This document shows, one piece after another, positions 3,638 through 62,975 of a DNA stretch of 64,000 nt. The notes below the pieces were generated by a model. The model did no database searches, was not told where the DNA came from, and saw only the letters and a list, made by a program, of their open reading frames with translations. The translations under genes and the position numbers were made by a program. Position 1 is the stretch's first letter, and the number at the start of each line of letters is the position of its first letter. Source of the DNA: Patescibacteria group bacterium UBA926 (GTDB taxonomy: Bacteria; Patescibacteriota; Doudnabacteria; UBA920); NCBI GenBank assembly GCA_002293685.1, contig DBDS01000004.1, forward strand, positions 34,479-98,478. The letters are read 5' to 3'.

Positions 3638-3673
3638 TGTCATCCTGAGTCCGCCAAAGGCGGACGAAGGATC
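3638..3673. repeat. GC-rich palindromic mini-element copy E1 (TGTCATCCTGAG-TCCGCCAAAGGCGGA-CGAAGGATC)
   Basis: TGTCATCC terminus with an internal perfect palindrome, set in AT-rich intergenic DNA between rplT and rpmI. Confidence 0.8.
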
Positions 3674-7570: not shown

Positions 7571-7693
7571 TGTCATCCCCGCCGCTAGATATTTCCTATG
7601 TCATCCCCGCGAAGGCGGGGATCCATTAGGGCACTTATAGATTCCGGATTTCCCGCGTTCACCTTCGGTGAACTTGTAGAATCCGGAATGACG
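7571..7693. repeat. composite GC-rich palindromic element E3 (two TGTCATCCCC starts, ATCCCCGCGAAGGCGGGGAT palindrome, GTTCACC-TTC-GGTGAAC palindrome, end CCGGAATGAC)
   Basis: Read directly from the sequence. It lies between the hydrolase start and the csp terminator. Confidence 0.8.
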
Positions 7694-9474: not shown

Positions 9475-9860
9475 TGGTGGAGATGGCGGGAGTTAAACCC
9501 GCGTCCAAAACTAAGCAATCGAATCATTGGTCACAAGATTAGTCCGTTAAAATACCGACAGCCTCACAACGGACAACTAAGCAGTCGGGCGATATACTTA
9601 ATTTCGGTTGAATGATGTATATCAGACCATTCAACTATAGCTCCAAATAAACCAGCTGATCTACGGTCAGAGCGGACAGTAGGGCTGGGCGTTGCCTAAA
9701 GGTTAGGCGAACGCAGGTGCAAGTTGCTTGCTATTGAAAGCAGCAACGACCTTGTTCCATGCGTTTTCACGTATGATTGCTTGTAAGATTTACGAGCTTG
9801 CAAGCTGGCTCGTCTTGTATATAAAACGATTTTAAAGTCCTGTCAAAATCCGGCATCCCC
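9475..9860 (-). ncRNA. ssrA: transfer-messenger RNA (tmRNA, ssrA)
   Basis: The minus strand begins GGGGATGCCGGATTTTGAC and ends GGACGCGGGTTTAACTCCCGCCATCTCCACCA. The acceptor stem has a G3:U70 wobble pair. The candidate tag frame ...AWNKVVAAFNSKQLAPAFA ends with UAA inside a hairpin. smpB lies 2 kb away. Confidence 0.85.
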
Positions 9861-11720: not shown

Positions 11721-11816
11721 CCTGTTAAATTATTAATATTGATTTAGATGCTCAGATTTATGAACAACTATTCAACCTGTTGAATCTGAAAGTTAAAATG
11801 TATTTAACAGGGTGAA
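11716..11816. repeat. ORF-less inverted-repeat module TTCACCCTGTTAAAT ... ATTTAACAGGGTGAA (15-bp perfect inverted repeat, ~70-bp spacer)
   Basis: Read directly from the sequence. The repeats match the terminal repeats of the GIY-YIG cassette at 18104-18382. One repeat overlaps the start codon of the PLD-like gene. Confidence 0.8.
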
Positions 11817-12635: not shown

Positions 12636-12733
12636 AATTAAATGCCTCCGTTTTGTTGACTTACTATAAAGTAAAACAGTGGAATTGTCAAGATTACTGC
12701 TTTCGATTTTGTGTTATAATTAAACCCATGAAC

Positions 12734-12825
12734 CCTGTTAAATATGCTAATTTCTTGAACAACAGGGAACAATTAGATTGGCTTACCAGTCTATTTTTAC
12801 TCATTAAATATTTAACAGGGTGAAA
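12734..12825. repeat. ORF-less inverted-repeat module CCCTGTTAAATAT ... ATATTTAACAGGGTGAAA overlapping the argS GTG start
   Basis: The repeats are 13/13 complementary with a ~62-bp spacer. GTG at 12820 is inside the right-hand repeat. Confidence 0.8.
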
Positions 12826-14749: not shown

Positions 14750-17700
14750 ATGACAGAACAAACTAACAAACCACAATCAAATACTCCAAATTTTAACGAA
14801 CAAGAACTAGAAGTTTTAAAGTTTTGGGCCGAGCAAAATATTTTTGAGAAGAGCTTAGAGCAAACTAAAGATGCTAAACCTTTTGTTTTTTATGATGGAC
14901 CACCGTTTGCAACAGGAGTTCCTCACTACGGACACATTTTAATTTCGGCCGTTAAGGATGCATTCGGTCGTTATCAAACCATGAAGGGCAATTCTGTGCG
15001 TCGTGTTTGGGGATGGGATTGTCATGGGTTGCCTATTGAAAATATTGTTGAAGCCAAGCTTGGTATTTCTGGAAAGAAGCAAATTGAAGAAGTCGGTGTC
15101 GAAAAGTTCAACGCAGCTTGTCGTGAAAACGTCCTTACCTATGTAGACGAATGGGGTCGTACCATTGAGCGATTAGCACGCTGGGTTAACTTCAAGGACT
15201 CCTATAAAACTATGGACACCACCTACATGGAAAGTGTCTGGTGGGGTGTAAAGCAAGTGTGGGATAAAGATTTAATTTACCCTGACCATAAAGTTTTGCT
15301 TTACTGCAGTCGCTGTGAAACGCCATTGTCGAATTTTGAAGTGGCGATGGACAACAGTTATAAAGATGTCACAGAAGCTTCTGTTTTCGTCAAGTTCAAG
15401 TTAAATAGTGGTCAGCGAATTTTGGATTTCATGACCGACGATAAAACTTATGCTTTGGCGTGGACCACAACACCGTGGACATTACCTGGTAATACTGCGC
15501 TAAACATTGGCCCAGAAATCACTTACGTTATTGTTGAGCAAAACGGCGATAACTATATTTTAGCTAAGGACAGATTGGAAATTTTAGAAGGGCAATACGA
15601 AGTTAAGACAGAAATCAGTGCACGTTCTTTGGAGGGCTTAGCTTACGAACCATTGTATCCTGGCGTAATTTCCGATGAATCTGGTACTGCTCACAAGATA
15701 TATATAGAGGATTATGTCACAACTACTGATGGAACAGGGATAGTTCATAATGCTGCGATGTATGGGGAAGAAGATTTCGCGGCTGCCAAGGCACGCAATT
15801 TACCTCGTCAACATATGTTGGATGCGAAGGGTGAGTATCTACCATCTGCGCCTGAGAGCTTGCGCGGCGTGTTCTTTAAAGATGCTGATAAAATTGTTCT
15901 CGATGAATTGACTAGCAAAAATTTGGTTTATAAAACTCTTAACTACACTCACAGTTATCCTCACTGTTGGCGTTGTGGTACAGCGTTGTACTACTCAGCG
16001 TTACCAGCTTGGTTTATCAATATTCAAAAAGTGAAAGCGCGAATGCTCGAACTTAACGAAGGAATCAATTGGTATCCTGAACATCTTAAACACGGTCGCT
16101 TCGCGCAAGGAATTGAAAATGCGCCTGATTGGAACATTTCACGTAACCGTTATTGGGCAACGCCTTTGCCATTTTGGTTGTGTGAGAGCGAAGATTGCGA
16201 TAACAAAGTTTGTATAGGCTCAATTGATGAACTAAAAACCAGAGCTTCAAATTTCGATGAAGTTTATCCAAACTACGATCCGAACCCCTCCCTACCCTCC
16301 CCTCAGGAGGGGAGGGATAGGGAGGGGTCAATTGATTTGCATAAACCATTCATTGATAGAATCAAACTGCCTTGTGAAAAATGTAGCGGTGTAATGGCTC
16401 GCGTTCCTGAAGTAATTGATTGCTGGGTTGAATCTGCGAGCATGCCGTTTGCAGAACTCCATGCCCCGTTTGAAAACCAAGATTTGTTAGAACAGCGCTT
16501 ACCAGCAGATTTTGTATCTGAATATATTCCGCAGACCCGGGCTTGGTTCTACGTGTCGCATGTAATGAGCACGATCATTTTCGACAAAGCTCCGTTTAAA
16601 AATGTGATTACAACCGGAACAGTTTTAGCAGAAGACGGTACAAAGATGTCGAAATCAAAAAATAATTTCCCTGACCCAAATCTTGTTATTGATCAATACG
16701 GCGCAGATCCACTTCGTTTTTATCTTTTGACGAGTTCGATTGTAACCGGTGAAGACTTGAATTTCTCTGAAGCTGGCGTTTCTGAAGTAAACCGAAAGTT
16801 AAGTTTAATTCTTTGGAACACATTCCAGTTTTATAGAATGTATAGCCACGACACAATTGGCACCGAAGCGCCTCACGTAACTCACAGCCTAGATGTTTGG
16901 ATGCTGTCTAGATTGTTTGCAACACATGCTGAAGTTACAAAACAATTAGATGGTTTTAACACAGTGAAGGCAGGACGTGCTATTTCTGAATTAGTTACCG
17001 AACTTTCAACTTGGTTTGTTCGTCGCAGCCGCGATAGAATTAAATCCGGTGGGGAAGACGCTCGCACCGCGCTTCAAGTATTAGGTTTCAGTCTTGTTGA
17101 AATCAGCAAGATGCTTGCGCCATTTATGCCGTATCTCAGTGAAAAGATTTACAAAGAACTTACCGGTGAAGAATCAGTGCACTTAGCTTCTTGGAGTGAA
17201 GTTCGTGAGTATCGTCAAAGTAGTTTGGATGAAATGTCGGCTTTACGTTCAATAGTTGAAATCGGTCTAAGTCTTCGTAAAGAACACAACTTAAAAGTTC
17301 GCCAACCACTCGCAGAATTACAGTACCAAATTGCTAACGAAGAATTGAATCTAGACGAATCACTCGAGCAAATCATTGCCGAAGAAATGAATGTGAAGAA
17401 AGTGACAAACACCGAAGTAATCTCTCGCACCAACTGGGTCTCGAAAGCGGATAATGGTTTTATAGTTGCACTAAATACAGAGTTATCACAAGAATTAAAA
17501 GATGAAGGTTTGGCTCGTGATATCGAACGCGCCGTTCAAGATTTGCGAAAGAAGAGTGGTCTAAAAGTCGGACAAATTGTTGATTTGTATTTCACAACTA
17601 AGGACGACAACCTTGCCGAGATTCTTACATCATTAGTTGATCGAAAAAAGACTTTTATCAATCAAATTAAAACTAGCTTAGAGATTGAAGCTGATTACGA

Positions 17701-18072: not shown

Positions 18073-18103
18073 ATATTAATCACAGCTTGTTTGATATAAT
18101 TAA

Positions 18104-18382
18104 CCCTGTTAAATAATTTCAAATTTAAACATGCACTATGTTTATGTACTGTGTTCAGAGAAGGATAAAAAATGGTATACTGGTTATACTAGAAATTTGA
18201 AATTAAGATTTGAGCAACATAGGTTAGGTAAAGTAGTTTCTACTAAGCATCGCAGGCCTTTGAAGCTAATTTATTATGAAGCCTGTTTGAACCAACAAGA
18301 TGCAACTCACCGAGAAAAGTATTTAAAAACTTTTCATAGTAAAGTATTTATCAAACGTAGGCTCAAATCTTATTTAACAGGG
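18104..18382 (+). mobile_element. minimal GIY-YIG cassette: 84-aa nuclease gene bounded by inverted repeats CCCTGTTAAATAA / TATTTAACAGGG
   Basis: The inverted repeats abut the ORF, whose last codons YLTG* are encoded by the right-hand repeat. ORF-less repeat pairs occur at 11716-11816, 12734-12825 and 57209-57313. Confidence 0.6.
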
Positions 18383-18385
18383 TAA
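18131..18385 (+). CDS. GIY-YIG nuclease family protein (COG2827-like)
   Basis: MHYVYVLCSEKDKKWYTGYTRNLKLRFEQHRLG, carrying the GIY...YIG motif. Confidence 0.8.
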   Translation: MHYVYVLCSEKDKKWYTGYTRNLKLRFEQHRLGKVVSTKHRRPLKLIYYEACLNQQDATHREKYLKTFHSKVFIKRRLKSYLTG

Positions 18386-21764: not shown

Positions 21765-21806
21765 ACTCTACCCCGATTTGTGCGGCCGCACAAATCGGGG
21801 TAGAGT
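21765..21806. repeat. 42-bp perfect palindrome (second copy of the GCGGCCGC-core hairpin) between convergent genes
   Basis: ACTCTACCCCGATTTGTGCGG|CCGCACAAATCGGGGTAGAGT. Its 36-bp core is identical to 192-227. Confidence 0.9.
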
Positions 21807-23476: not shown

Positions 23477-25606
23477 ATGGAACTTAATCATCTCAATCAA
23501 GCACAACGTACAGCCGTGACCGCTCCGCTCGGTCCGGTTTTGGTTTTGGCCGGTGCAGGAAGCGGGAAGACTCGCGTTTTAACTTACCGAATCGCTCATA
23601 TTATAGAGCAGGGGCTTTACCGCCCTGATCAAATATTGGCAGTGACTTTTACAAATAAAGCGGCTAAGGAAATGCAAAGTCGTATTGCGAAATTACTTGC
23701 CGAAGGTGGCAACCAGAAGTTGGTGAGTCAGCCAGTTCTTGGAACTTTCCATTCCATTGGTGTTCGAATTCTCAGAAAATATATTTCTAAGCTCGGTTAT
23801 AACCCAAGTTTCTCGATTGCCGACAGCGACGATCAGTTAAAAATTATTAAGGATATTTTAAAAGATTTAGCTGTGCCGAAGCAGTTCGGAGCACCGTTAT
23901 TTAGAGCTTACATCTCTTCGGCGAAGAACTTGTTGCAAACCCCTGCCCAAATGGACTTAGGTTTGGATGGTCATATCCGTGATTTAGCGGCTCAGGTCTA
24001 CGGGCGTTATCAAGACTTTCTATTTAAGCAGAACAATGTTGATTTTGATGATTTGTTAATGCTACCAATCATTTTGTTTCAGAATTTCCCTGAAGTACTA
24101 AGATCTTTCCAAGAGCGATGGCAGTATATATTAGTAGACGAGTATCAGGACACCAACCAAGCTCAGTATATGTTCCTTCATTTATTGGCAAAATCAGGAA
24201 ATATTTTTGTGGTTGGTGACGACGCTCAAAGTATTTATGGTTTTCGTGGTAGTAATATTGCTAATATCTTAAATTTTGAAAAGGACTTTCCAAACGCCCA
24301 AGTGATTAAACTTGAACAAAATTATCGTTCTACTAAGAATATTTTAGCGGCTGCACAAAAAGTTATTGAGTTGAATAGTGAGCAAAAACCAAAAACGTTA
24401 TGGACCGATAATGATGATGGCGATAAGGTTATGATTAAAGAGGTTTATGATGGTCACACTGAAGCTGTGTTTGTCGCCAAAAAGATTGTTAGTCTTTCCT
24501 CAGGGGTAGAAGACGAATGGGAATATGAACTAGATGATGATGAACAACCTCAAACCTTCTCTATATTAGATACTTTTTTAGCACAGCAAAAGCGACGAGG
24601 CGGTTCTGGTAAATCATGGTCTGGAGCAATTGGCATTCCGCAGCTGCCAAAAAACCATGGACCATTAAATGAGTTTGCTGTTTTGTATCGCACTCATGCG
24701 CAGAGTCGTCAGATTGAAGAAGTTTTCATAACAGCAGGAATCCCATATCACATTGTTGGCGGTGTGAAGTTCTATGAACGAAAAGAAATCAAAGATGTTT
24801 TAGCATATCTTAGATTGTTGATTAATCCGCTCGATATCTTAGCTTTAGATAGAGTTATTAATTTGCCACCACGAGGAATTGGTGAAAAATCATTCGAGCA
24901 AATCCGAAAGTATGTACTTGCTTTGCCAAAAGGTTTGTCGGTTGAGGAAGTCGCTACAAAATTAGGACAATTAGCATTACCCCCAAAGCAGCGAGCTGGT
25001 TTAAATCAGTTCTGGGGAATTTTGAAAAAAGCTGCTTTGGTTCCGGAAGAAGTGACTCTTTCGGAATTACTTAAAGTTGTTGTCAAGCTTTCGGGAATCG
25101 ATGATTTGTTAAATGATGGTACTGACATAGGTGAAGTTCGTCGCGAAAACGTTCGTGAATTGTTTAACGTGACTGCAAAATTTGATAACACGGCTTGGCA
25201 TGAAGGCCTTCAGTTGTTTTTAGAGGAAGTCGCCTTAATCACTGATTTAGACAACTTAACTGATGAACGCAACTCTGTAACATTGATGACACTTCATGCT
25301 GCAAAAGGTTTGGAGTTCGATACTGTGTTTTTTGTAGGCTTAGAAGAAGGGATTTTGCCTCATACTAATAGTTTGTTTGATCCAAAAGAATTGGCAGAAG
25401 AGGTTAGATTGGCCTACGTTGGCTTGACTCGTGCCCGTAAGAGATTATTTTTATTATATGCGCAAGGCCGTCAGATGTACGGCAGTTTTCAGAATAATGC
25501 TCCTTCACGTATTTTACACGCGCTACCTAAAGAAGTTATTAATGCAGCAGCGGGTACTAAGCTCGCAGCTCAGGATGGCGATTATTCCTACGAACCATTT
25601 GAGTAA
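23477..25606 (+). CDS. pcrA: ATP-dependent DNA helicase, UvrD/PcrA family
   Basis: 709-aa protein with Walker A VLAGAGSGKTRVLTYR and helicase motifs (DEYQDTN, VGDDAQSIYGFRG). Confidence 0.9.
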   Translation: MELNHLNQAQRTAVTAPLGPVLVLAGAGSGKTRVLTYRIAHIIEQGLYRPDQILAVTFTNKAAKEMQSRIAKLLAEGGNQKLVSQPVLGTFHSIGVRILRKYISKLGYNPSFSIADSDDQLKIIKDILKDLAVPKQFGAPLFRAYISSAKNLLQTPAQMDLGLDGHIRDLAAQVYGRYQDFLFKQNNVDFDDLLMLPIILFQNFPEVLRSFQERWQYILVDEYQDTNQAQYMFLHLLAKSGNIFVVGDDAQSIYGFRGSNIANILNFEKDFPNAQVIKLEQNYRSTKNILAAAQKVIELNSEQKPKTLWTDNDDGDKVMIKEVYDGHTEAVFVAKKIVSLSSGVEDEWEYELDDDEQPQTFSILDTFLAQQKRRGGSGKSWSGAIGIPQLPKNHGPLNEFAVLYRTHAQSRQIEEVFITAGIPYHIVGGVKFYERKEIKDVLAYLRLLINPLDILALDRVINLPPRGIGEKSFEQIRKYVLALPKGLSVEEVATKLGQLALPPKQRAGLNQFWGILKKAALVPEEVTLSELLKVVVKLSGIDDLLNDGTDIGEVRRENVRELFNVTAKFDNTAWHEGLQLFLEEVALITDLDNLTDERNSVTLMTLHAAKGLEFDTVFFVGLEEGILPHTNSLFDPKELAEEVRLAYVGLTRARKRLFLLYAQGRQMYGSFQNNAPSRILHALPKEVINAAAGTKLAAQDGDYSYEPFE

Positions 25607-25700: not shown

Positions 25701-26654
25701 ATGACAATAGATACTCTTAAAAGTTTATTAAAACACTATGGTCTAAATCCTAACAAGACATACGGTCAGCATTTTTTAATGGACGAAACAATTCTTGAAG
25801 ACATGGCTGATGTTGCTGATGTTAAAGCGGGGGATATGGTTGTAGAAATCGGACCAGGGATTGGTAACTTGACTGAAATTTTGTTAAAGCGAGAAGCAAC
25901 TGTTTTATCAATTGAAAAAGATGAACAGTTTATAAGAGTTCTTCGCACGCTTTCAAAGCAATACAAAAATTTTGAGTATGAGTTAATTGATGCATTGAAA
26001 TTTAATTTCTCCTCTTTCCTGTCATCCCCGGGCGAGCGTAGTGAGAACCGGGGATCCACTAGTGGGTCCCGGCTAGCCCGCGCGACTTCGTCCGCCAAAA
26101 TCTCTACGAGATTTAGGCGGACTTCGTCGCTTGTAGCTGCCGGGAAGACACCACAGTATAAAGTTGTCGCCAACATTCCTTACTACATCACTGGGAAAAT
26201 TGTTCAATTGTTTTTGAAGCAGGAGCATAAACCAAAAAGCATGACATTGCTTATGCAGAAAGAAGTTGCTAACAATATTGTTGCGAAAGTTGGACAACTA
26301 AACTTGTTAGCAATTTCTGTACAACTATATGGCGACGCAAAATTAGTTACAAAAGTTCCTGCTTTTAAATTTCATCCGGCTCCAAAAGTTGAGAGCGCAG
26401 TTATTCATATCGAATTATTTTCCAAACCAAAATATAAATTGAAAGACGAGCAAAAGTTTTTTCGAGTGTTGCGCGCTTGCTTTGCAGGGAAGCGAAAGCA
26501 AATCCATAACACACTGACAAATAATTTAGGACTAGAAAAAACTGTTGCATTGCAAAGTTTGGAAAATATAAATGTTGACCCAACGGCAAGACCACAGCAA
26601 CTAACAATCGAACAATGGATTAAGTTAGTAGACTCAATTGAATTGCCAAATTAA
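25701..26654 (+). CDS. rsmA: 16S rRNA (adenine1518/1519-N6)-dimethyltransferase RsmA/KsgA with ~44-codon in-frame GC-rich insert
   Basis: Contains GQHFLMDE, VVEIGPGIGNLT and YKVVANIPYYITG motifs. It is 317 aa versus ~270 for typical KsgA. The insert lies between FNF and YKVVANIPY. Confidence 0.9.
   Translation: MTIDTLKSLLKHYGLNPNKTYGQHFLMDETILEDMADVADVKAGDMVVEIGPGIGNLTEILLKREATVLSIEKDEQFIRVLRTLSKQYKNFEYELIDALKFNFSSFLSSPGERSENRGSTSGSRLARATSSAKISTRFRRTSSLVAAGKTPQYKVVANIPYYITGKIVQLFLKQEHKPKSMTLLMQKEVANNIVAKVGQLNLLAISVQLYGDAKLVTKVPAFKFHPAPKVESAVIHIELFSKPKYKLKDEQKFFRVLRACFAGKRKQIHNTLTNNLGLEKTVALQSLENINVDPTARPQQLTIEQWIKLVDSIELPN
26019..26150. repeat. GC-rich palindromic element E6 inserted in frame in rsmA
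   Basis: TGTCATCCCCGGGCGAGCGTAGTGAGAACCGGGGATCCACTAGTGGGTCCCGGCTAGCCCGCGCGACTTCGTCCGCCAAAATCTCTACGAGATTTAGGCGGACTTCGTCGCTTGTAGCTGCCGGGAAGACA. It is homologous to 53002-53039, 57601-57679 and 14583-14657. Confidence 0.9.
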
Positions 26655-26667
26655 AATTTATTCCTGT

Positions 26668-26782
26668 TGTCATCCTGAGCGTAGCGAATGATCTAGTTCC
26701 GAGATTCTTCGGCTTTGCCTCAGAATGACATTTGGCACTCCGCATTTGAGTTAAAAATGATCCCGGGTCTCAGCCCGGGATT
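26668..26782. repeat. GC-rich palindromic element E7 (12-bp termini TGTCATCCTGAG / CTCAGAATGACA) plus GATCCCGGGTCTCAGCCCGGGATTT hairpin
   Basis: The element sits in the convergent intergenic region and probably doubles as a bidirectional terminator. Its reverse complement is homologous to the gatB insert at 60733-60822. Confidence 0.85.
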
Positions 26783-38891: not shown

Positions 38892-38898
38892 AACCTTA

Positions 38899-39055
38899 GT
38901 CATTCTGAACAAAGCAACTTCATCATTCTGAGCTCTTCGAAGAATCTACCTCTGTCATTCTGAAGCCGTAGGCTGAAGAATCCAATAATTAGAGATCCTT
39001 CGCTTCGCCCGCCAAAATCCCTTTGAGATTTAGGCGGATTACGCTCAGGATGGCA
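38899..39055. repeat. GC-rich element E8: three tandem GTCATTCTGA(A/G) sub-units plus a CGCCAAAATCCCTTTGAGATTTAGGCGGA module
   Basis: Read directly from the sequence. The CGCCAAAATC...GAGATTTAGGCGGA module also occurs inside the rsmA insert at 26085-26125. Confidence 0.85.
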
Positions 39056-45678: not shown

Positions 45679-45915
45679 TTAAATTAGATGTCTGTTTCTA
45701 AACCCTTGTCCAGAACCAGACTTTAAGTATTTTTCAAAATTAAGAGCATCTTGCCTCTTAGAGAATGCACAGTACCATATTAATTTAACTGGTAGAAAAT
45801 TTTTAGTAGCATTCACTGACCCTTCGGTGTGTCGGTTCAATCTTTCTTTTACGTCTTTACTACTACCTGTATAGATTTTACCATTTATTAGTTTTAGTAG
45901 ATACACGTAATGCAT
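45679..45915 (-). CDS. GIY-YIG nuclease family protein (second copy), adjacent to tRNA-Ser
   Basis: MHYVYLLKLINGKIYTGSSKDVKERLNRH. The start is taken at the internal Met. The upstream extension of the called ORF overlaps a hairpin. Confidence 0.7.
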   Translation of the reverse strand: MHYVYLLKLINGKIYTGSSKDVKERLNRHTEGSVNATKNFLPVKLIWYCAFSKRQDALNFEKYLKSGSGQGFRNRHLI

Positions 45916-46023
45916 GTTTATTTTGCAACCCTTCGCTAAAGCTATGGGTTGCACACTTCGCTATTGTGATTTATTGGCTTGCCACACGAAGCCTTCTTGC
46001 CATCCGAAGGATGGGGCGAAGTG

Positions 46024-46111
<88 letters not shown>

Positions 46112-46550
46112 ACGTCGTACTTGTCTCCGAGCTTTCGGTACAGGCTAAAGCCTGTCCCTTACGCTCTCCATCAAGTACTCCTCTCACATTCACGCTTAAC
46201 CTCGCTATCGCTCGGCCCAAGTGTGAATGTGGTAAACTCACTTTCTTGGTCGCGGATACGGCAAGCCGTCCCGCTCCTTGTTCGCACTGGCGAAGCCAGA
46301 CGCTCACATGCTAAAGAATATTGTTGCCCTACGGGCATCTAAGATAAATCTAAATTGTGGATACTGTAAGTAGGACCTCCCTAACTACACTGTCTAAATG
46401 ACTCTACTATTATAACATTTTACCAAACTAAATCAAAAACGAGCCGTACTCTAGAATTGGCTCGTTTTTTGTTGGGTTTCGATTTCTGGTAGTACTATCA
46501 TTTCTGGATGGACGCCCACTTGGACTCAACTGGGCGTAGACCAAAAAGGA

Positions 46551-48505: not shown

Positions 48506-48598
<93 letters not shown>

Positions 48599-48810
48599 TC
48601 GTCGCAACAACCTCCATCCGTTCAAATTTGGCTAAAGCCAAATTTTCACTAGTTCCGGTGTTGCTCCTCTCACATTCACGCTTAACCTCACTACGCTCGG
48701 CCCAAGTGTGAATGTGTCAAATTATTAATACAGTCGCGGATGCTGCAAGCGGCCCCGCAGATATGTATCAATAACTCACTCATTTTACTGCAAAAGTGGT
48801 CATTGGTCAA

Positions 48811-52631: not shown

Positions 52632-53144
52632 ATGTTTAAGAAAGCTCGACCACTGAAAGATCCTTCCGATTACGACCACGGCTATCAATATGCCTTATTC
52701 TTGCTCAATTTAAGCATGCGGACTGTTGGCGAAGTAAGAGACAAAATGACTAGTCGCGGATACACTTCTACTGTAATAAACGAAGTTATAAACAATCTGT
52801 TACAAGAAAAATACTTGAACGACTCAAATTATGCCGAAGTTTTTATAAATAGTATGAAAAACTATAAAACTTGGGGTCGGTTCATGATGAAAAAGAAGAT
52901 GTATGAGAAAAAATTACCGAAAGAATTAATTGACGAAAGCTTAAATGAATTTTTAAGTACCAAAGAAGAGAAGGAAATTGCTATGAGGTATCTATCTTCC
53001 ATGTCATCCTCGGTCGAGCGAAGCGAGAACCGGGGATCCATTGAATGGATTAAATCCCTGCCTTACGACGAAAAACAAAAACTAATGAGAAAGTTATTAT
53101 CACGCGGGTTTGGGATGGACATAGTAACAAAACTAATAAAATAA
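52632..53144 (+). CDS. recX: RecX-family regulatory protein with short in-frame GC-rich insert
   Basis: 170-aa ORF with a three-helical-repeat pattern (YALFLLNLSMRTVGEVRDKM...). Confidence 0.6.
   Translation: MFKKARPLKDPSDYDHGYQYALFLLNLSMRTVGEVRDKMTSRGYTSTVINEVINNLLQEKYLNDSNYAEVFINSMKNYKTWGRFMMKKKMYEKKLPKELIDESLNEFLSTKEEKEIAMRYLSSMSSSVERSENRGSIEWIKSLPYDEKQKLMRKLLSRGFGMDIVTKLIK
53002..53039. repeat. truncated copy of the rsmA-type GC-rich element inside recX (TGTCATCCTCGGTCGAGCGAAGCGAGAACCGGGGATCC)
   Basis: ~85% identical to 26021-26055. It is translated in the same frame (ERSENRGS). Confidence 0.85.
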
Positions 53145-57186: not shown

Positions 57187-57208
57187 TATTTATTCCCTCT
57201 ATAATTTA

Positions 57209-57313
57209 CCCTGTTAAATATAGCTGAAATTAGCTAGTTTAGAAGACGTGTTTTGGTTTCGTAAAAGTGTTATAATTAACACATAAATCATAAATAATTT
57301 AACAAGGTAAATG
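57209..57313. repeat. ORF-less inverted-repeat module CCCTGTTAAATA ... ATTTAACAAGGTAAATG abutting the gatC start, with internal extended -10 TGTTATAAT
   Basis: Same half-sites as the GIY-YIG cassette. The right-hand half-site is degenerate by one base. TATAAT at 57271-57276. Confidence 0.7.
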
Positions 57314-57679: not shown

Positions 57680-59195
57680 TTATAGCATGAACTACGAAGA
57701 ATTATCTCTCGCTGAGTTGCGGGAAAAATTGGATAACAAAGAAGTTTCGTCAGTCGAACTGACGAACTATTTTTTGGCGCGAATCAAAGAGCAGAATCCG
57801 GAGCTCAATGCGTTCATTACAATTACTGAACAAGAAGCGTTAGAACAAGCAAAAGAAGCTGATGAATTTATAAACTCACCAGGCGACAACTTTCCACTAA
57901 CAGGAATTCCTTTTGCAGCGAAAGATTTATTTTTAACTAAGGGTATTCGTACAACAGCAGCTTCAAAAATTTTAGATAACTATATCCCGCCGTACGACGC
58001 AACTGTAATTGCAAAACTGAAAGAGCAGAAAGCAGTGTTGCTTGGTAAAGCGAACATGGATCAGTTTGCGCATGGCTCATCGGGTGAAACATCTGCTTAT
58101 GGCGCAACCAAAAATCCGTGGGACAAAACTCGTATGCCTGGCGGTTCTTCTTCGGGTAGTGCTGCTGCAGTGGCTGCGGGGCTTGCTCCTTGGGCTTTAG
58201 CTACAGAAACAGGCGGCAGTATTCGCCAACCTGCTTCGTTAACCGGCGTAAGTGGTTGGAAACCAACTTATGGCCGTGTTTCGCGATATGGAGTAGCGGC
58301 GATGGCTTCAAGTTTGGACAGCATGGGCGCTATGGCTACAAGCGTAAAAGATTTGGCAATGATTGCCGAAAGTATTTCTGGTCATGATCCAAAAGATGGC
58401 ACAACTGGAGAGCGTGAAGTTCCTGCTTACTCAAAATTACTGGACGCAAATATCAAAGGAATGAAAATCGGTGTGCCTAAAGAATATTTTGTTGATGGAA
58501 TGGAAGCAGGGGTGCGGGAAGCTGTCGAGAAGGCAATTGAAGAAATAAAAAACTTAGGTGCAGAAATTGTTGAGGTTAGTTTACCAAACACAAAGTACGG
58601 TTCGCTTGTTTACGCAATCGTATGTCCAAGCGAAGTATCTTCAAACCTAGCTCGTTACGATGGAATTCGTTACGGCCATTCCACATCTGAAGGCGGCAGT
58701 TTATTAGATGTGTACCAGAAAAGCCGCGCGGAGGGCTTTGGTGACGAAGCCAAACGCAGAATTATGACAGGTACTTACGTTCTTAGCGCGGGCTATTACG
58801 ATGCTTATTACAAAAAAGCGCAGCGCGTGCGTCGTAAGATTTTAAATGAATTCGAAGAAGTTTTTAAGCGGGTAGATATTTTACTTGCACCATCAAGTCC
58901 GAATGTTGCTCAGCCTTTGGGGAACGCCGCGAGTGATCCATTGTTTGGATATATCGCCGATCAATTAAACATCCCAGCTTCATTGGCAGGTTTGCCTGCA
59001 TTGTCGTTGCCGTGTGGTTTTGCTTCCCCTCCTTTCCAAGGAGGGGTGGCCGAGTCCGCGACAGCGGGCGAGGACGGGGTGCTACTTCCAGTTGGACTTC
59101 AAATCATCGGTCCGCAATGGGGCGAACAAAAAGTTTTTAATGTTGGATACGCTTATCAGCAAGCAACTGATTGGCATACTAAGAAAGCAAAATAA
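57675..59195 (+). CDS. gatA: Glu-tRNA(Gln) amidotransferase subunit A with ~18-codon in-frame hairpin insert
   Basis: Amidase signature GGSSSGSAAAVAAGL, with catalytic Ser/Lys context. The true start may be Met at 57687. Confidence 0.95.
   Translation: MTYSMNYEELSLAELREKLDNKEVSSVELTNYFLARIKEQNPELNAFITITEQEALEQAKEADEFINSPGDNFPLTGIPFAAKDLFLTKGIRTTAASKILDNYIPPYDATVIAKLKEQKAVLLGKANMDQFAHGSSGETSAYGATKNPWDKTRMPGGSSSGSAAAVAAGLAPWALATETGGSIRQPASLTGVSGWKPTYGRVSRYGVAAMASSLDSMGAMATSVKDLAMIAESISGHDPKDGTTGEREVPAYSKLLDANIKGMKIGVPKEYFVDGMEAGVREAVEKAIEEIKNLGAEIVEVSLPNTKYGSLVYAIVCPSEVSSNLARYDGIRYGHSTSEGGSLLDVYQKSRAEGFGDEAKRRIMTGTYVLSAGYYDAYYKKAQRVRRKILNEFEEVFKRVDILLAPSSPNVAQPLGNAASDPLFGYIADQLNIPASLAGLPALSLPCGFASPPFQGGVAESATAGEDGVLLPVGLQIIGPQWGEQKVFNVGYAYQQATDWHTKKAK
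59037..59090. repeat. in-frame CCCCTCCTTTCCAAGGAGGGG hairpin element in gatA
   Basis: Perfect 8-bp stem. The insert encodes ASPPFQGGVAESATAGEDG between the conserved CGF and LPVGLQIIG. It is homologous to 62155-62215 in miaA. Confidence 0.85.
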
Positions 59196-59669
59196 ATGAA
59201 CAAGCCTTCAGCGATTACTAAAGGTATATTTATAATCTTAATGCTACTAATTGCAGCGTTTGCTTTATTGCCTTTATACTTGATTAAGCAAAACGTAACT
59301 GCTTTGGTTGATGGTCGTCAAATAGTAGGCGAAGTCATGAATGTTCAGACCCAGATTACTGGCAGTTGTTTTTCAGAAGTTGACTGCCGTTCAGATGTGA
59401 TTAAGCAGATAAAGTATTTTGATGATAATGGGAATGAACAGTTTTTTACAACTTCAGCTTATAGTAGTGTTTCTTTTCTGGGATTGTTTGATGAGGGTGA
59501 TAAAGTGAATTTAGTGGTGATTAATGAGGATTTTAGTAGTATTCAAGTGTATCTACCTTTTGTAACATGGGCTTACATTTTTCTACTTCTTGTGATTGTT
59601 GCTCTGGCTGTTAAAGGAGCAATTGCATTTTTACATCACAACAAGAACATACAAGGTAATCAAATATGA
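59196..59669 (+). CDS. hypothetical two-TM membrane protein inserted between gatA and gatB
   Basis: Overlapping stop/start codons on both sides (translationally coupled). Confidence 0.45.
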   Translation: MNKPSAITKGIFIILMLLIAAFALLPLYLIKQNVTALVDGRQIVGEVMNVQTQITGSCFSEVDCRSDVIKQIKYFDDNGNEQFFTTSAYSSVSFLGLFDEGDKVNLVVINEDFSSIQVYLPFVTWAYIFLLLVIVALAVKGAIAFLHHNKNIQGNQI

Positions 59670-61252
59670 ACTTAAACGGATACAAACCAGTTATCGGACT
59701 CGAAATCCACGTACAGCTTGCAACCAAAAGCAAGATGTTTTCTAGCGCGCCTAATAATCCTGACGAAAAACAGCCAAATACTAATATAGACGAAGTCGTT
59801 ACGGCGGAACCGGGAACTTTGCCGGTGCTTAATAAAGAAGCGGTTCGTCTTGGGGTGATGGTGGGTTTGGCTTTAAATTGCGAAATTCCTGAATACTCAA
59901 AATTTGATCGGAAACATTATTTCTATCCAGATTTACCGAAAGGTTATCAGATTTCTCAGTACGATGAACCAATTGCCTTAAACGGTTGGGTAGAAATTTT
60001 GGTACCAACAAATGGGGAACGCGATGCTTACACTAAACGCATCCGCATCACCCGCGCACACTTGGAAGAAGATGCTGGTAAAAACATGCACCCAGAAGGT
60101 TTGCCATATTCGCTCGTTGATTACAATCGAGCCGGTAGTCCGCTTTTAGAAATTGTCACCGAACCAGATATAGAAACTGCCGAAGAGGCGCGCATCTTCT
60201 TGCAGGAATTACAAAGAATTGTTCGCTATGTCGGAGCGAGCTCTGCTGATATGGAAAAAGGCACAATGCGTTGTGAGCCAAACATTTCAGTTCGCAAACC
60301 CGGAGAAGAAAGCTTGCCAAAATACAAGGTTGAAGTGAAAAACATCAACAGTTTTAAATTTGCGGAAGCAGCAATCAATTACGAAATTCCTCGTCACATC
60401 GAAATGCTTGAAGCAGGTGGCATGCCAAAGCAAGTCACGATGGGTTGGAATGAGAAAACTAACAAGACTGTTGAACAACGCAGTAAGGAAGAAGCAAATG
60501 ATTATCGCTATTTCCCCGAACCAGATTTAGCGCCAATGCGTTTTACAAAAGAATTTCTTGATGAACTGCGGGGAGATTTACCTGAATTGCCATCACAAAA
60601 GCGCGTGCGTTTCAAACAAGAGTTTGCTCTTGATGAATCTGTAATCGAAACTTTACTAAATTGGAAAGACCTCAATGAATATTTTGAGGATGTTGTTAGT
60701 GAGATTGACGCTTGGATAATTACTGACTCCAGTGTCATTCTGAGTGATAGCGAAGAATCTCAATCATCAGATCCTTCGGCTTCGCCTCAGGATGACGGGA
60801 AAGAGATCTCTCAGGATGACGGAAAAAGAGCGAGATTAATCAAAGCGGCGGCGAATTGGTGCATTCAAGAATTTTCAGCTTTACTAAATGCCGACTTGGC
60901 AAACCCAAGTGACTCAAAAGTTTCAGCAGAAAATATGGCTGAACTTGTAAAGCTAATTGACGCTGGAAAAATTTCTGGTTCAGCAGCGAAGCAAGTATTT
61001 AAAAAGATGTATGAAACTGGCGGTGAGCCAGACCATATAGTAGAAGAACTTGGCTTGTCACAGGTTAGTGATGAAGGAGCAATTGAAACTGCAGTAGACG
61101 AAATCATCGCTGCAAATCCGAAAGCCGTAGAGGATTACAAAGCTGGTCAACAAAAATCGTTCGGCTTCTTGGTAGGGCAAGTGATGGCGGCCATGAAAGG
61201 AAAAGCTAATCCACAAGTGGTTAACGAAATTTTAAAAGAGAAATTATCATAA
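59666..61252 (+). CDS. gatB: Asp/Glu-tRNA amidotransferase subunit B with ~30-codon in-frame insert before the C-terminal YqeY-like domain
   Basis: Conserved N-terminus MNLNGYKPVIGLEIHVQL and the GatB/GatE catalytic core. Confidence 0.95.
   Translation: MNLNGYKPVIGLEIHVQLATKSKMFSSAPNNPDEKQPNTNIDEVVTAEPGTLPVLNKEAVRLGVMVGLALNCEIPEYSKFDRKHYFYPDLPKGYQISQYDEPIALNGWVEILVPTNGERDAYTKRIRITRAHLEEDAGKNMHPEGLPYSLVDYNRAGSPLLEIVTEPDIETAEEARIFLQELQRIVRYVGASSADMEKGTMRCEPNISVRKPGEESLPKYKVEVKNINSFKFAEAAINYEIPRHIEMLEAGGMPKQVTMGWNEKTNKTVEQRSKEEANDYRYFPEPDLAPMRFTKEFLDELRGDLPELPSQKRVRFKQEFALDESVIETLLNWKDLNEYFEDVVSEIDAWIITDSSVILSDSEESQSSDPSASPQDDGKEISQDDGKRARLIKAAANWCIQEFSALLNADLANPSDSKVSAENMAELVKLIDAGKISGSAAKQVFKKMYETGGEPDHIVEELGLSQVSDEGAIETAVDEIIAANPKAVEDYKAGQQKSFGFLVGQVMAAMKGKANPQVVNEILKEKLS
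60733..60822. repeat. GC-rich element E14 inside gatB (TGTCATTCTGAG...CCTCAGGATGACGG...CTCAGGATGACGG)
   Basis: Homologous to the reverse complement of the intergenic element at 26668-26730. It encodes SVILSDSEESQSSDPSASPQDDGKEISQDDG. Confidence 0.85.
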
Positions 61253-61814: not shown

Positions 61815-62975
61815 TCACCTTAGGAGCTTTTTGGCAAGGGTGATTAACTCGTCTGGTGAATCGGACCAATGAATATCTTTATTCCGTTTCCACCAAGTTA
61901 GTTGACGTTTGGCGTATTGTCTAATGGATATCACTGACAGTTCCTGCATTTGTTTGGCAGTAATTTTATTCTGCAAAAACTGAGCTGTATATTTATATTC
62001 TAATCCGAAGCTTTCAAATCTTTTCCAAGATACACCATTTTTGTGAAGCGAACTTACTTCATCGATCATACCGCGCTTTAACCAAGACTTCATTCGTTTA
62101 CTGATTTTACCTTCTAATACTTCCATGGATGGGTTTATTCCTAACCAAAGTGTCGACCACCCCGTCTTCGCCTTCGGCGAATCCACCCCTCCTTGAAAAG
62201 GAGGGGAGAGCAAAGGCACAGGTTTGCCAGTTGATTTAACAATTTCAATTGCTCGTATCAGACGGTGAGGATTTTTTTCATCAATAGTTTTTGCACGTTC
62301 CGGGTCTAGCTTCATAAGCATCTTAAACATCTCAGTAGTGCTGAGTTTAGATAATTTTGCTCGGAGTTTCAAATCAGGTTTGACTTTTGGAAATTGTTGA
62401 TTGAATGCAACTGAATCAATCCAGTGCATAGTGCCGCCGCAGAGGATTGGTAGCTTACCGCGTTTTAAAATATCCGAAATTATTTTATGTGCCTTTCGCT
62501 GAAATTTCTCTGCGGAATATTGTAGCTTTGGATTAGCTTCATCAATTAAGTAGTGGGGAATTGATTTGTAAATAAAGACTTTTTTGGAAATAGATCCTTC
62601 GACTCGCTTCGCTCGCTCAGGATGACGTGGAGTAGATCCTTCGACTCGCTTCGCTCGCTCAGGATGACGTGGAGTAGATCCTTCGACTCGCTTCGCTCGT
62701 CCGTGAATACTAGATGGGATAGCAGTATCCCCGGCGAATGCCGGGGTCTGTAATGTAGATCCCGGATAGCCCTGCGGGCTTCCGGGATGACTGGAAAATG
62801 GAACTGTCATCCATTTTCCAGTCACTTTCCCGCTTCCAATATCTAGCCCACGATAAATTTGTCGGCTGTCTGCCGAAATAATTTCACCATTAAATTTCTT
62901 GGCTAATTTAACAGCCAATTCACTTTTTCCACTAGCTGTTGGACCGACAACAATTACGAGCTTTGGTTTGTTCAT
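61815..62975 (-). CDS. miaA: tRNA dimethylallyltransferase MiaA carrying two in-frame GC-rich inserts (~85 extra codons)
   Basis: P-loop VIVVGPTASGKSELAVKLA and ISADSRQIYRGLDIGSGK, then a long insert before the conserved SIPHYLID. It is 386 aa versus ~300 aa for typical MiaA. Confidence 0.9.
   Translation of the reverse strand: MNKPKLVIVVGPTASGKSELAVKLAKKFNGEIISADSRQIYRGLDIGSGKVTGKWMTVPFSSHPGSPQGYPGSTLQTPAFAGDTAIPSSIHGRAKRVEGSTPRHPERAKRVEGSTPRHPERAKRVEGSISKKVFIYKSIPHYLIDEANPKLQYSAEKFQRKAHKIISDILKRGKLPILCGGTMHWIDSVAFNQQFPKVKPDLKLRAKLSKLSTTEMFKMLMKLDPERAKTIDEKNPHRLIRAIEIVKSTGKPVPLLSPPFQGGVDSPKAKTGWSTLWLGINPSMEVLEGKISKRMKSWLKRGMIDEVSSLHKNGVSWKRFESFGLEYKYTAQFLQNKITAKQMQELSVISIRQYAKRQLTWWKRNKDIHWSDSPDELITLAKKLLR
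62155..62215. repeat. in-frame CCCCTCCTTGAAAAGGAGGGG hairpin element in miaA (homolog of the gatA insert)
   Basis: Its reverse complement CCCCTCCTTTTCAAGGAGGGGTGG...GACGGGGTGG aligns with 59037-59090. It encodes LSPPFQGGVDSPKAKTG. Confidence 0.85.
62591..62823. repeat. complex GC-rich insert in miaA: 42-bp tandem repeat x2.4, a homolog of intergenic E9, and a GACTGGAAAATGG...CCATTTTCCAGTC hairpin
   Basis: TAGATCCTTCGACTCGCTTCGCTCGCTCAGGATGACGTGGAG is repeated head to tail (62591-62700). The next segment, 62717-62790, is ~80% identical to 41284-41344. Confidence 0.9.

What the first reader, a model, noticed from the sequence alone, without database searches (positions are those of the whole stretch)
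60733..60822. The gatB insert is the reverse complement of an intergenic element (26668-26730)
Seen in sequence:
- gatB carries TGTCATTCTGAGTGATAGCGAAGAATCTCAATCATCAGATCCTTCGGCTTCGCCTCAGGATGACGG.
- The reverse complement of the intergenic copy is TGTCATTCTGAGGCAAAGCCGAAGAATCTCGGAACTAGATCATTCGCTACGCTCAGGATGACAA.
- They share termini and an internal GAAGAATCTC block.

This shows the same element can reside both between genes and, in the opposite orientation, inside a coding frame. The insert sits at the linker before the GatB C-terminal domain.
Basis: seen in the sequence. Interest (0 to 1): 0.55.

Follow-up and report, generated by a model that had tools for sequence, protein, structure and literature searches.

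The report
REP-like palindrome inserted inside gatB
A short hairpin-forming DNA repeat that normally sits between genes is inserted in frame in the essential gatB gene of a tiny-genome (CPR/Patescibacteria) bacterium. It is translated as a floppy 29-residue loop, much like the 'palindromic elements' found inside Rickettsia genes.

Summary
gatB carries an 87-nt in-frame insert (60734-60820) that most orthologues lack. Its 63-nt core resembles the intergenic element at 26668-26730 along its whole length, not only at the termini.

The 'reverse complement' claim cannot be decided. Both orientations align equally well because the element is a quasi-palindrome.

The element is a dimer of two inverted REP-type hairpin units. 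Each unit has a (T/C)GTC tag, a stem that starts A-T/T-A, a GA/GA internal loop, a GCGNAGC-type mini-hairpin tip and a short tail. This fits most features of the published 'CGTC-tagged REP' superfamily, which includes Rickettsia RPE-4 and RPE-6. It differs in having an interrupted stem.

Identical sequence blocks occur in more than 15 bacterial phyla and in viral contigs. A base pair inside each unit covaries, while pairing between the two units is often broken.

In GatB the insert forms a low-confidence coil between two helices. Related repeats also sit in frame in gatA, miaA, rsmA, recX and ileS. The blocks are conserved far beyond the gene's synonymous divergence.

How the element moves is unknown: there are no target-site duplications and no transposase nearby. 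I rate it a new variant of a known kind, of moderate interest.

The parts
59666..61252 (+). gatB (528 aa), the host gene
   Evidence: ORF. Pfam GatB_N covers residues 9-298 and GatB_Yqey covers 392-527. Homologues are named GatB.
60734..60820 (+). 87-nt (29-codon) in-frame insert, V357-D385: VILSDSEESQSSDPSASPQDDGKEISQDD
   Evidence: Absent from about 112 of the 120 closest homologues and from the syntenic locus L003. Only the frame in use is open, out of six. pLDDT is below 50.
60733..60759 (+). Left REP-type unit: TGTC tag, stem ATTCT/AGAAT, GA/GA internal loop, tip GTGATAGC, tail C
   Evidence: Read from the sequence. The unit alone folds as ....(((((..((....))..)))))...
60760..60769 (.). 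Variable spacer between the two units (TCAATCATCA)
   Evidence: Differs among the orthologous copies in L001 and L002 while the blocks stay identical.
60770..60797 (-). Right REP-type unit. Read on the minus strand: CGTC tag, stem ATCCT/AGGAT, GA/GA loop, tip GGCGAAGCC
   Evidence: Folds as ....(((((..(((...)))..))))).. with -10.3 kcal/mol.
60798..60821 (-). Extra 24 nt: a 12-nt spacer plus a head-only fragment (CTCAGGATGAC at 60810-60820, tag at 60821)
   Evidence: Present in the window and in L002 and absent from L001. Similar 'stuttered heads' occur at 38899-38932 and in L142 and L180.
26668..26730 (.). Intergenic dimer of the same family. Left unit 26668-26693, spacer 26694-26702, right unit 26703-26730. 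It starts 14 nt after the rsmA stop, between convergent ORFs, and is followed by a terminator-like hairpin at 26759-26782
62591..62716 (-). Three tandem 42-nt family units inside miaA, read as (R)HPERAKRVEGSTP x3
   Evidence: D2. The miaA orthologues in L001, L003 and L006 have no insert here. The arm sequence GACTCGCTTCGCTCG...CTCAGGATGAC is identical to arms in a Clostridia MAG and in a Bifidobacterium.
38898..39055 (.). Composite intergenic copy: two head-only fragments plus a complete dimer whose right unit has a long tip hairpin
3638..3673 (+). Single intergenic unit of the family (tip TCCGCC-AAA-GGCGGA). Its partner has decayed
7599..7625 (+). Sibling unit with the canonical published architecture: TGTC, 8-bp stem ATCCCCGC, loop GAAG, tail CCA
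   Evidence: Features compared with PMC3733652.
26020..26058 (+). Sibling TGTC-tagged unit (stem ATCCCCGG/CCGGGGAT, tail CCA) at the start of a ~150-nt in-frame insert in rsmA/ksgA
53002..53040 (+). Sibling TGTC-tagged unit in frame in recX. It is absent from the orthologues in L003, L005 and L006

Best explanation
The gatB segment is a copy of a non-coding, hairpin-forming interspersed repeat of the REP type.

Anatomy. It is a dimer of two inverted units. Each unit is built as follows:
- a 5' tag (T/C)GTC;
- a stem whose first two pairs are A-T and T-A (ATYCT/AGRAT);
- a symmetric GA/GA internal loop (probably tandem sheared G.A pairs; inferred);
- a GCGNAGC/GCGNNAGC-type mini-hairpin tip;
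- a 1-2-nt tail.

This matches most defining features of the published CGTC-tagged REP superfamily, to which Rickettsia RPE-4 and RPE-6 belong.

History. A copy became fixed in a surface connector between two helices of GatB, in the ancestor of at least three sampled lineages. It survived because its length is a multiple of three, the frame in use has no stop codon, and the 21-29 extra Ser/Asp/Glu-rich residues form a disordered loop that does not disturb the enzyme. It is therefore transcribed and translated with the gene. The shared insertion and the disordered loop rest on data. Neutrality for the enzyme is inferred.

Still constrained. The invariant blocks are kept at the nucleotide level, either by selection on the hairpin or its recognition sequence, or by gene conversion from other copies. 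Which of these applies is not resolved.

Spread. Most likely a nuclease or transposase supplied in trans acts on the single-stranded hairpin and its tag, as RAYT does on GTAG REPs. This is inferred. No enzyme was identified, and the literature says CGTC REPs lack a dedicated transposase.
For: - Insert versus empty site. About 112 of 120 close homologues lack the segment. Syntenic L003 is empty, and L001 and L002 carry the same element at the same codon.
- Family membership in the window. There are 13 head blocks against 1.6 expected, and there are further copies and sibling units.
- Unit architecture. Single units fold as tag + 5-bp stem + 2x2 loop + tip + tail.
- Covariation inside the unit. 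Position Y of GTCATYC and position R of GAAGRATC are T-A in 73 cases, C-G in 105 and mismatched in 5. T/A-type left units often face C/G-type right units.
- Other stems in the same loci. Sibling families use ATTGC/GCAAT, ATTCC/GGAAT and ATCCCCGG/CCGGGGAT, and hybrid dimers exist.
- Distribution. Most complete dimers among the genome hits carry the fourth block, which was not in the search pattern.
- Literature definition of CGTC REPs. This covers the tag CGTC/TGTC, A/T in stem positions 1 and 2, the tail, dimers, intragenic copies encoding 20-30 aa, the identity of RPE-4 and RPE-6, and the lack of a dedicated transposase (PMC3733652).
- No target-site duplication. Flanking direct repeats occur at about chance frequency in 165 dimers.
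- Selection filter. Dimer lengths mod 3 are uniform (58/59/48) in other genomes, and one frame per strand always holds TGA. The gatB copy is 63/87 nt and open only in the frame in use.
- Structure. pLDDT is below 50 for residues 356-383, between confident helices. The region replaces about 5 residues of Aquifex GatB.
- Nucleotide-level conservation. Third-position identity is 0.86-0.90 inside the insert and 0.51-0.53 outside (P = 8e-5 to 1e-3). The spacer has diverged while the blocks are identical.
- Not an assembly artefact. Seven independent assemblies were shown; the four compared over the region match the window at 99.9-100%.
Against: - No mobilising enzyme was found in the window or near copies in 120 loci.
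- No strain-level presence/absence polymorphism was seen, so recent mobility is unproven.
- The units do not have the uninterrupted 8-9-bp stem and 4-5-nt loop of the four published CGTC families, and the tail is CT rather than CCA.
- Strong nucleotide conservation inside a coding region could mean the copy has a function, rather than being a tolerated passenger.
- Carriers of an insert at this codon are scattered in a poorly resolved tree. A single ancestral insertion cannot be told apart from repeated insertions.
Confidence: 0.8

Rival explanations
1. It is a classical MITE: a deleted insertion sequence with terminal inverted repeats (TGTCATYCTGAG...), moved by a DDE transposase by cut-and-paste.
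For: The element has 12-nt inverted termini and is short, non-coding and dispersed.
Against: Flanking direct repeats of 2-9 bp occur at about chance frequency in 165 complete dimers. Single units and tandem same-orientation units exist. Units from different families form hybrid dimers. The covariation is inside each unit, not between the termini. No transposase lies in the window or next to copies.
Confidence: 0.07
2. The gatB copy is a functional nucleic-acid or protein module kept by selection. Examples would be an mRNA hairpin acting as a processing, stability or ribosome-pausing signal between GatB domains, or a useful acidic linker.
For: The blocks show no synonymous change among three lineages whose gatB third positions are only ~52% identical. 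The same codon position is occupied in five lineages, and a different palindrome sits there in a sixth. The same blocks occur across phyla and next to phage capsid genes.
Against: Most close relatives do without any insert. The insert's length and spacer vary freely. The encoded residues are predicted to be disordered. Conservation limited to the blocks shared with other copies is also what gene conversion among copies would give. Related repeats sit in unrelated loops of six genes.
Confidence: 0.1
3. The segment is an intervening sequence that is removed: an intron, an intein or a translational bypass element.
For: It interrupts a conserved gene at a discrete point and is strongly structured.
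Against: It is always in frame and free of stop codons in five gatB lineages, with lengths of 54, 63, 87, 87 and about 99 nt. No Rfam intron or ribozyme family matches, even at E<=10. At 29 aa it is far too short for an intein (established knowledge).
Confidence: 0.02
4. The similarity is chance, low-complexity sequence or an assembly artefact.
For: None beyond the short length.
Against: The alignment lies about 10 sd above shuffles. The four independent assemblies compared match the window at 99.9-100%. Orthologous copies exist in L001 and L002.
Confidence: 0.01

Closest known systems
CGTC-tagged REPs (Di Nocera, De Gregorio & Rocco 2013, BMC Genomics 14:522; PMC3733652)
   Same: The 5' tag is CGTC or TGTC. 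The first two stem pairs are A-T and T-A. There is a short 3' tail. Units are mostly paired in inverted orientation and can fold separately or as one long hairpin. Copies lie close behind ORFs between convergent genes. Some copies are intragenic, with dimers encoding 20-30 aa. No dedicated transposase is known. A canonical-looking unit (8-bp stem, GAAG loop, CCA tail) is present in this window at 7599-7625.
   Different: The gatB units have a 5-bp stem, a GA/GA internal loop and a mini-hairpin tip, in place of an uninterrupted 8-9-bp stem with a 4-5-nt loop. The tail is CT, not CCA. The host is a CPR/Patescibacteria genome, whereas the paper lists 5 phyla, mostly alpha-proteobacteria. The same blocks recur in more than 15 phyla and in viral contigs. 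I could not compare with the paper's consensus sequences because the figure is not held.
Rickettsia palindromic elements (RPE; Ogata et al. 2000, 2002, as summarised in PMC10969869 and PMC3733652)
   Same: Palindromic repeats are inserted in frame in housekeeping genes of a reduced genome and translated as extra surface segments. Several unrelated genes are affected. RPE-4 and RPE-6 are themselves CGTC-tagged REPs.
   Different: The classic RPE-1 elements are ~100-150 bp with a conserved peptide, and they are confined to Rickettsia. Here the units are 25-35 nt (dimers ~55-100 nt). The host is unrelated. The family is not lineage-specific.
REPIN/RAYT systems (Nunvar et al. 2010, PMC2817692; Bertels & Rainey 2011, PMC3116915)
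   Same: There is a conserved 5' tetranucleotide at the foot of a GC-rich imperfect hairpin. Inverted doublets are separated by a spacer. Copies form clusters and tandem arrays. There are no target duplications. Enterobacterial REP loops (TAAGCGNAGCGCA) resemble the unit loop here (TGAGCGNAGCGAA).
   Different: The tag is GTC rather than GT(A/G)G. No RAYT gene flanked by the units was found. REPIN families are usually lineage-specific and co-evolve with their RAYT.
Bacterial MITEs (review PMC10969869)
   Same: They are small, non-coding, structured and dispersed, and they occasionally make in-frame fusions with host ORFs.
   Different: There are no target-site duplications. Single hairpin units are the repeating module, rather than one element bounded by terminal inverted repeats.

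Membership tests
CGTC-tagged REP superfamily (PMC3733652) | [quoted passage not shown] | tested here: met
   The gatB units carry TGTC (60733-60736) and CGTC (minus strand, 60797-60794). In 244 family units from other genomes the base before GTC is T in 192 and C in 42. The tag is left unpaired when single units are folded.
CGTC-tagged REP superfamily (PMC3733652) | Stem begins with complementary A and T residues in positions 1 and 2 | tested here: met
   All units have GTC|AT...AT|C.
CGTC-tagged REP superfamily (PMC3733652) | Stem of 8-9 bp with a loop of 4-5 nt (families CGTC-1 to -4) | tested here: not met
   The gatB and intergenic units have a 5-bp stem, a 2x2 GA/GA internal loop, a 2-3-bp tip stem and a 3-4-nt loop. 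Sibling units in the same window do meet the feature: 7599-7625 has a stem of 8 and a loop of 4, and the unit ending at 4007 has a stem of 8 and a loop of 5.
CGTC-tagged REP superfamily (PMC3733652) | Short unpaired 3' tail, mostly CCA | tested here: inconclusive
   A tail is present, but it is C+T in 81% of family units. Sibling units at 7599, 26020 and 53002 end in CCA.
CGTC-tagged REP superfamily (PMC3733652) | Units mostly organised as inverted dimers; many copies per genome | tested here: met
   About 70% of the genome pattern matches are complete dimers, 134 of 184. The window holds 13 head blocks against 1.6 expected. Whether these are the paper's 'HH' or 'TT' dimers could not be settled. 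A whole-genome count was not possible.
CGTC-tagged REP superfamily (PMC3733652) | No transposase gene flanked by the units | tested here: inconclusive
   None was found in the 64-kb window, and no gene family recurs near copies in 120 loci. The rest of the genome was not available.
Rickettsia palindromic elements (RPE) | Palindromic repeat inserted in frame in protein-coding genes, compatible with the protein fold | tested here: met
   gatB, gatA, miaA (two sites), rsmA, recX and ileS carry in-frame GC-rich palindromes. The gatB insert is a low-confidence coil between helices.
Rickettsia palindromic elements (RPE) | Member of one of the named RPE families of the genus Rickettsia (~100-150 bp, conserved peptide) | tested here: not met
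   The host is Patescibacteria/Doudnabacteria-like.
REPIN/RAYT system | 5' GT(A/G)G head on the REP | tested here: not met
   The head is (T/C)GTC.
REPIN/RAYT system | A single-copy RAYT (Y1/HUH transposase) gene flanked by the cognate REPs | not testable with these tools
   Only 64 kb of the genome is available, and there is none in it.
MITE | Terminal inverted repeats plus target-site duplication | tested here: not met
   Inverted termini are present, but flanking direct repeats occur at about chance frequency in 165 dimers.

The most novel reading that the evidence does not exclude
The TGTC/CGTC-tagged hairpin with GA/GA loop and GCGNAGC tip may be an ancient nucleic-acid module shared across bacteria, carried by phages as well as by more than 15 phyla. 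On this reading a still unknown, widely conserved protein (a nuclease, primase or other single-strand-binding factor) recognises it. Its sequence would then be under purifying selection even when embedded in essential coding regions. The gatB, miaA and other intragenic copies in CPR bacteria would be working signals, for example for mRNA processing or stability, or for replication priming, and not tolerated junk.
Probability: 0.12. Interest if true: 0.75.

Novelty: new variant of a known kind. Interest (0 to 1): 0.5.

Why it matters
In-frame 'protein-coding palindromes' have been regarded as a Rickettsia speciality. Here the same phenomenon appears at high density in an unrelated reduced-genome lineage: at least seven in-frame sites in six genes, mostly translation-related (gatA, gatB, miaA, ileS, rsmA) plus recX, within 64 kb. 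This suggests that gene-dense genomes with little intergenic space push REP-type repeats into permissive protein loops.

It also has a practical side. These inserts lengthen proteins, create false start codons and break assemblies, so CPR annotation and alignment should expect them.

The same 11-nt and 8-nt blocks recur in more than 15 phyla and in viral contigs, and the covariation points to the single unit as the conserved structure. This extends the CGTC-REP superfamily well beyond alpha-proteobacteria. It also sharpens an open question: what recognises and spreads these elements, given that no dedicated transposase is known?

Tried and rejected
- **Rfam.** The gathering scan of the window, a permissive scan of 60680-60860, and a gathering scan of seven loci with canonical copies found no family covering the element.
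- **Literature searches.** Searches for the exact sequence strings returned only unrelated primer hits. Searches for CPR/Patescibacteria plus MITE or palindromic elements found nothing relevant. RepRanger (PMC12306157) does not mention CPR or this motif. The supplements of PMC3733652 hold none of the strings I searched.
- **BLAST against plasmids.** A canonical dimer gave no match against PLSDB. The query is short, so this says little.
- **Recurrent neighbouring genes.** All-against-all BLAST of 2014 ORFs from 120 loci found no family in more than 6 loci. ORFs around dense clusters (L049, L020, L045) and around ~1.3-kb-spaced pairs in viral contigs (L137, L131) are ordinary genes, such as capsid genes and transporters. 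None is a transposase.
- **Strain-level polymorphism.** The four assemblies compared match the window at 99.9-100%. The apparent miaA length differences in L186 and L190 are runs of N in the tandem repeat.
- **Phylogeny of 120 GatB proteins.** The neighbour-joining tree is too star-like (85-92% identity all round) to count insertion events.
- **Hammerhead or other ribozyme reading.** I rejected this for the CUGA...GAA core. The core residues do not fit, and there is no Rfam hit.
- **CRISPR-like reading of tandem arrays (L145).** I rejected this. The arrays are tandem copies of whole dimers with A-rich linkers.
Full report
**1. What is in the sequence**

gatB is the ORF 59666-61252 (+), 528 aa. 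The intergenic element is at 26668-26730. It starts 14 nt after the stop of rsmA/ksgA, lies between convergent ORFs, and is followed by a terminator-like hairpin at 26759-26782. The window has 40% G+C. It comes from a Patescibacteria (CPR) bacterium whose closest named GatB relatives are Candidatus Doudnabacteria.

**2. Is the similarity more than chance, and more than the termini?**

- The global alignment of the two copies scores 33 in either orientation (50/65 identities forward, 53/67 reverse-complement).
- 5000 shuffles give -9.0 +/- 4.3, with a maximum of 11.
- With the 12-nt termini removed the score is 12 (forward) or 13 (reverse), against -7.4 +/- 3.5. The fraction of shuffles reaching it is <=0.0002.
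- The head block GTCATYCTGAG (<=1 mismatch) occurs 13 times in the window, against 1.6 expected.
- Further copies lie at 3638 (single unit), at 38898-39055 (composite), and as three tandem 42-nt units inside miaA at 62591-62716.

**3. Orientation**

Each copy is a quasi-palindrome, so 'reverse complement' is not a well-posed statement. Two criteria disagree.
- The stems come in a T/A state (GTCATTC...GAAGAATC) and a C/G state (GTCATCC...GAAGGATC). The gatB copy is T/A on the left and C/G on the right.
- The unit tips match in the forward orientation: GTGATAGC (GCGAYAGC in L001/L002) vs GCGTAGC on the left, and GGCTTCGCC vs GGCTTTGCC on the right.
- The gatB copy of relative L004 sits at the same site and in the same orientation, with related tips, and it has the stem states of the intergenic copy read forward.

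I therefore treat the orientation as undecidable.

**4. It is an insert**

- Of the 120 closest GatB homologues, about 112 have a 23-27-aa connector between DAW and NWC.
- The window protein (P0001), P0002 (L001), P0003 (L002), P0030 (L004) and P0094 (L005) carry VIL[SN][DE]... at the same codon position.
- P0043 (L006) carries a different GC-rich palindrome at that position.
- L003 is syntenic (gatC-gatA-x-gatB, with miaA opposite) and empty.
- L001 has the plain 63-nt dimer. The window and L002 have 24 more bases, consisting of a 12-nt spacer and a second head-only block.
- A neighbour-joining tree is too poorly resolved to count events, but P0094 (76% identity) is clearly distant from the others.

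**5. Where the insert lies in the protein**

- Pfam places GatB_N at residues 9-298 and GatB_Yqey at 392-527.
- Against Aquifex GatB (3H0L_B), residues 5-345 and 393-526 align. Query residues 346-392 therefore stand where the solved chain has only residues 336-340.
- In an AlphaFold2 model (25-sequence alignment, mean pLDDT 73.8), residues 356-383 have pLDDT below 50 and no secondary structure. They lie between helices 334-354 and 383-410, whose pLDDT is about 90.

**6. Anatomy of the element**

Folded whole, a copy forms one long hairpin. The comparative data say that the conserved structure is the single arm.

The hits span Acidobacteriota, Chloroflexota, Firmicutes, Bacteroidota, Omnitrophota, Planctomycetota, Cyanobacteria, Gemmatimonadota, Nitrospirota, Verrucomicrobiota, Synergistota, Actinobacteriota (Bifidobacterium), Gamma-, Alpha- and Deltaproteobacteria, Saccharibacteria and Parcubacteria. 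My own rough estimate, not a tool result, is that about 3 matches would be expected by chance in 596 Gb.

Of 184 matches, 134 also carry the fourth block CTCAGGATGAC, which was not in the pattern.

In the left arm the pattern left Y and R free. They are T-A in 73 cases, C-G in 105 and mismatched in only 5. Meanwhile T/A left arms face C/G right arms, so pairing between the arms is broken at those positions.

The tips vary but stay self-complementary. Examples are CGAAGC, CGCAGC, TGAAAC, GGCAAAGCCC, GAGCGAAGCGAC and CCGCGAAGACGGC.

Single units fold as ....(((((..((...))..))))).. That is a 4-nt unpaired tag, a 5-bp stem, a 2x2 GA/GA loop, a tip hairpin and a tail. The tips are of the GCGNAGC/GCGNNAGC type, known as extraordinarily stable mini-hairpins (PMC13037366). 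That the GA/GA loops form tandem sheared pairs is my inference.

Sibling families in the same loci keep GTC|AT...AT|C but use other stems: ATTGC/GCAAT (38 hits in 22 of 183 loci; my own estimate is that ~0.7 would be expected by chance), ATTCC/GGAAT, and ATCCCCGG/CCGGGGAT. Dimers built from arms of different families exist, as in L183 and L182.

The base before GTC is T in 192 and C in 42 of 244 units. The base after ...ATC is T in 198.

Flanking direct repeats of 2-9 bp occur at about chance frequency in 165 dimers, so there is no target-site duplication.

**7. What it is called**

The architecture matches most defining features of the CGTC-tagged REP superfamily of Di Nocera et al. 2013 (PMC3733652). 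That paper describes:
[quoted passage not shown] - short tails and predominant dimers;
- a location close behind ORFs;
- intragenic copies, most numerous in Rickettsia conorii, where they correspond to RPE-4 and RPE-6;
- dimers encoding 20-30 aa;

A unit with the canonical 8-bp stem, GAAG loop and CCA tail is in this window at 7599-7625.

The gatB units differ in three ways. The stem is interrupted, where the published families have 8-9 bp plus a 4-5-nt loop. The tail is CT. The host phylum is new. I could not compare with the paper's consensus sequences because the figure is not held. I found no paper in the held library that reports such repeats in CPR bacteria, and Rfam has no model.

**8. 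Why it is tolerated, and signs that it is still constrained**

In other genomes, dimer lengths mod 3 are uniform (58/59/48). One frame per strand always contains TGA, and the other frames are each open in about 45% of dimers. Only about 9 of 106 dimers are spanned by long open frames.

The gatB copy is 63 or 87 nt long and open only in the frame in use. This is what survival under selection for an intact essential gene predicts.

Among the window, L001 and L002:
- gatB third-codon positions are 51-53% identical outside the insert and 86-90% identical inside it;
- for identical amino acids, the same codon is used in 53-54% of cases outside and 89-95% inside;
- the binomial probabilities are 8e-5 to 1.4e-3.

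The 10-nt spacer has diverged (TCAATCATCA, TCAAACCAAA, TAAAACTAAA), while the blocks are identical. The alignable spacers argue that the three copies descend from one insertion. The frozen blocks mean either selection on the hairpin and tag, or gene conversion from other copies. These data cannot separate the two.

**9. The wider pattern in this genome**

GC-rich palindromes lie in frame at these sites:
- ileS, 16267-16341;
- rsmA, 26009-26159;
- recX, 52995-53051, absent from three orthologues;
- gatA, 59009-59106;
- miaA, 62139-62228 and 62593-62813.

In miaA the same site holds family units in the window, L002, L004 (a single unit, RHPERSEGS) and L005. It holds none in L001, L003 or L006.

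This is the Rickettsia RPE phenomenon (PMC10969869) in an unrelated reduced genome.

**10. Mechanism of spread (inferred)**

The features point to an enzyme that acts on a single-stranded hairpin, as RAYTs do on GTAG REPs (PMC2817692), and not to a DDE transposase. These features are:
- a conserved tag at the foot of a hairpin;
- the absence of target duplications;
- inverted doublets, tandem arrays (L145) and stuttered head fragments.

I found no such enzyme in the window, near clusters, or as a recurrent neighbour in 120 loci.

The element is also present in 57 IMG/VR viral contigs, in intergenic positions such as either side of a capsid gene. Phages are therefore a possible vehicle between hosts.

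The four assemblies of this strain that I compared match the window at 99.9-100%, so recent movement could not be observed.

**11. Verdict**

The orientation claim cannot be decided. The element is best filed as a new, structurally variant family of the known CGTC/TGTC-tagged REP superfamily, behaving like Rickettsia RPEs in a CPR genome. Interest is moderate. Two features lift it above routine: the unusually broad distribution across phyla, and the nucleotide-level conservation inside an essential gene.

Noticed in passing
window 18103-18383; also 11719-11813, 12732-12821, 57208-57308: The 12-mer ACCCTGTTAAAT occurs 8 times (0.38 expected), always as inverted pairs. One pair brackets a GIY-YIG nuclease gene (18131-18385, Pfam E=3.7e-15), and its right repeat overlaps the gene's last codons. 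Three pairs are ~80-90 nt apart with no gene between them. This looks like a tiny nuclease-carrying element bounded by inverted repeats, plus MITE-like derivatives.
   Followed up: partly
window 45679-45954 (-): A second stand-alone GIY-YIG gene (E=1.8e-16) lies next to a tRNA gene and is not bracketed by that repeat.
   Followed up: no
window 16267-16341, 26009-26159, 52995-53051, 59009-59106, 62139-62228, 62593-62813: Other GC-rich palindromic repeats are inserted in frame in ileS, rsmA/ksgA (~45 aa), recX, gatA and miaA (two sites). Those in recX, gatA and miaA are absent or different in close orthologues.
   Followed up: partly
window 57675 and 39023: The first ATG of the gatA ORF lies inside a repeat head (GGGATGAC). 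Orthologues start at MNYEEL (ATG at 57687). The ORF starting at 39023 also begins inside the element at 38898-39055. Repeat heads supply false start codons.
   Followed up: partly
window 192-227 and 21768-21803: A perfect 36-nt palindrome, CTACCCCGATTTGTGCGGCCGCACAAATCGGGGTAG, is present twice and identically, 21.5 kb apart.
   Followed up: no
window 46024-46236 and 48506-48721: Two tRNA genes (46027-46111 and 48509-48598, minus strand) lie in segments that share several near-identical blocks about 2.49 kb apart, which suggests a local duplication.
   Followed up: no
window 3084-3188: A tandem 21-nt coding repeat (QQQAPAG x4-5) lies at the C-terminus of the ORF 2541-3191.
   Followed up: no
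L186 and L190, miaA region (equivalent to window 62591-62716): Two other public assemblies of the same strain have runs of N exactly at the three tandem 42-nt repeat units in miaA, so these repeats break short-read assemblies. At least three other assemblies (L184, L185, L188) agree with the window.
   Followed up: yes
window 25569-25579: A lone head-like block (CTCAGGATGGC) sits in the last codons of the UvrD/PcrA-like helicase gene (23477-25606). It may be a remnant of a unit or may be chance.
   Followed up: no
window 9475-9860 (-): A full-length tmRNA gene (Rfam RF00023, 112 bits).
   Followed up: no
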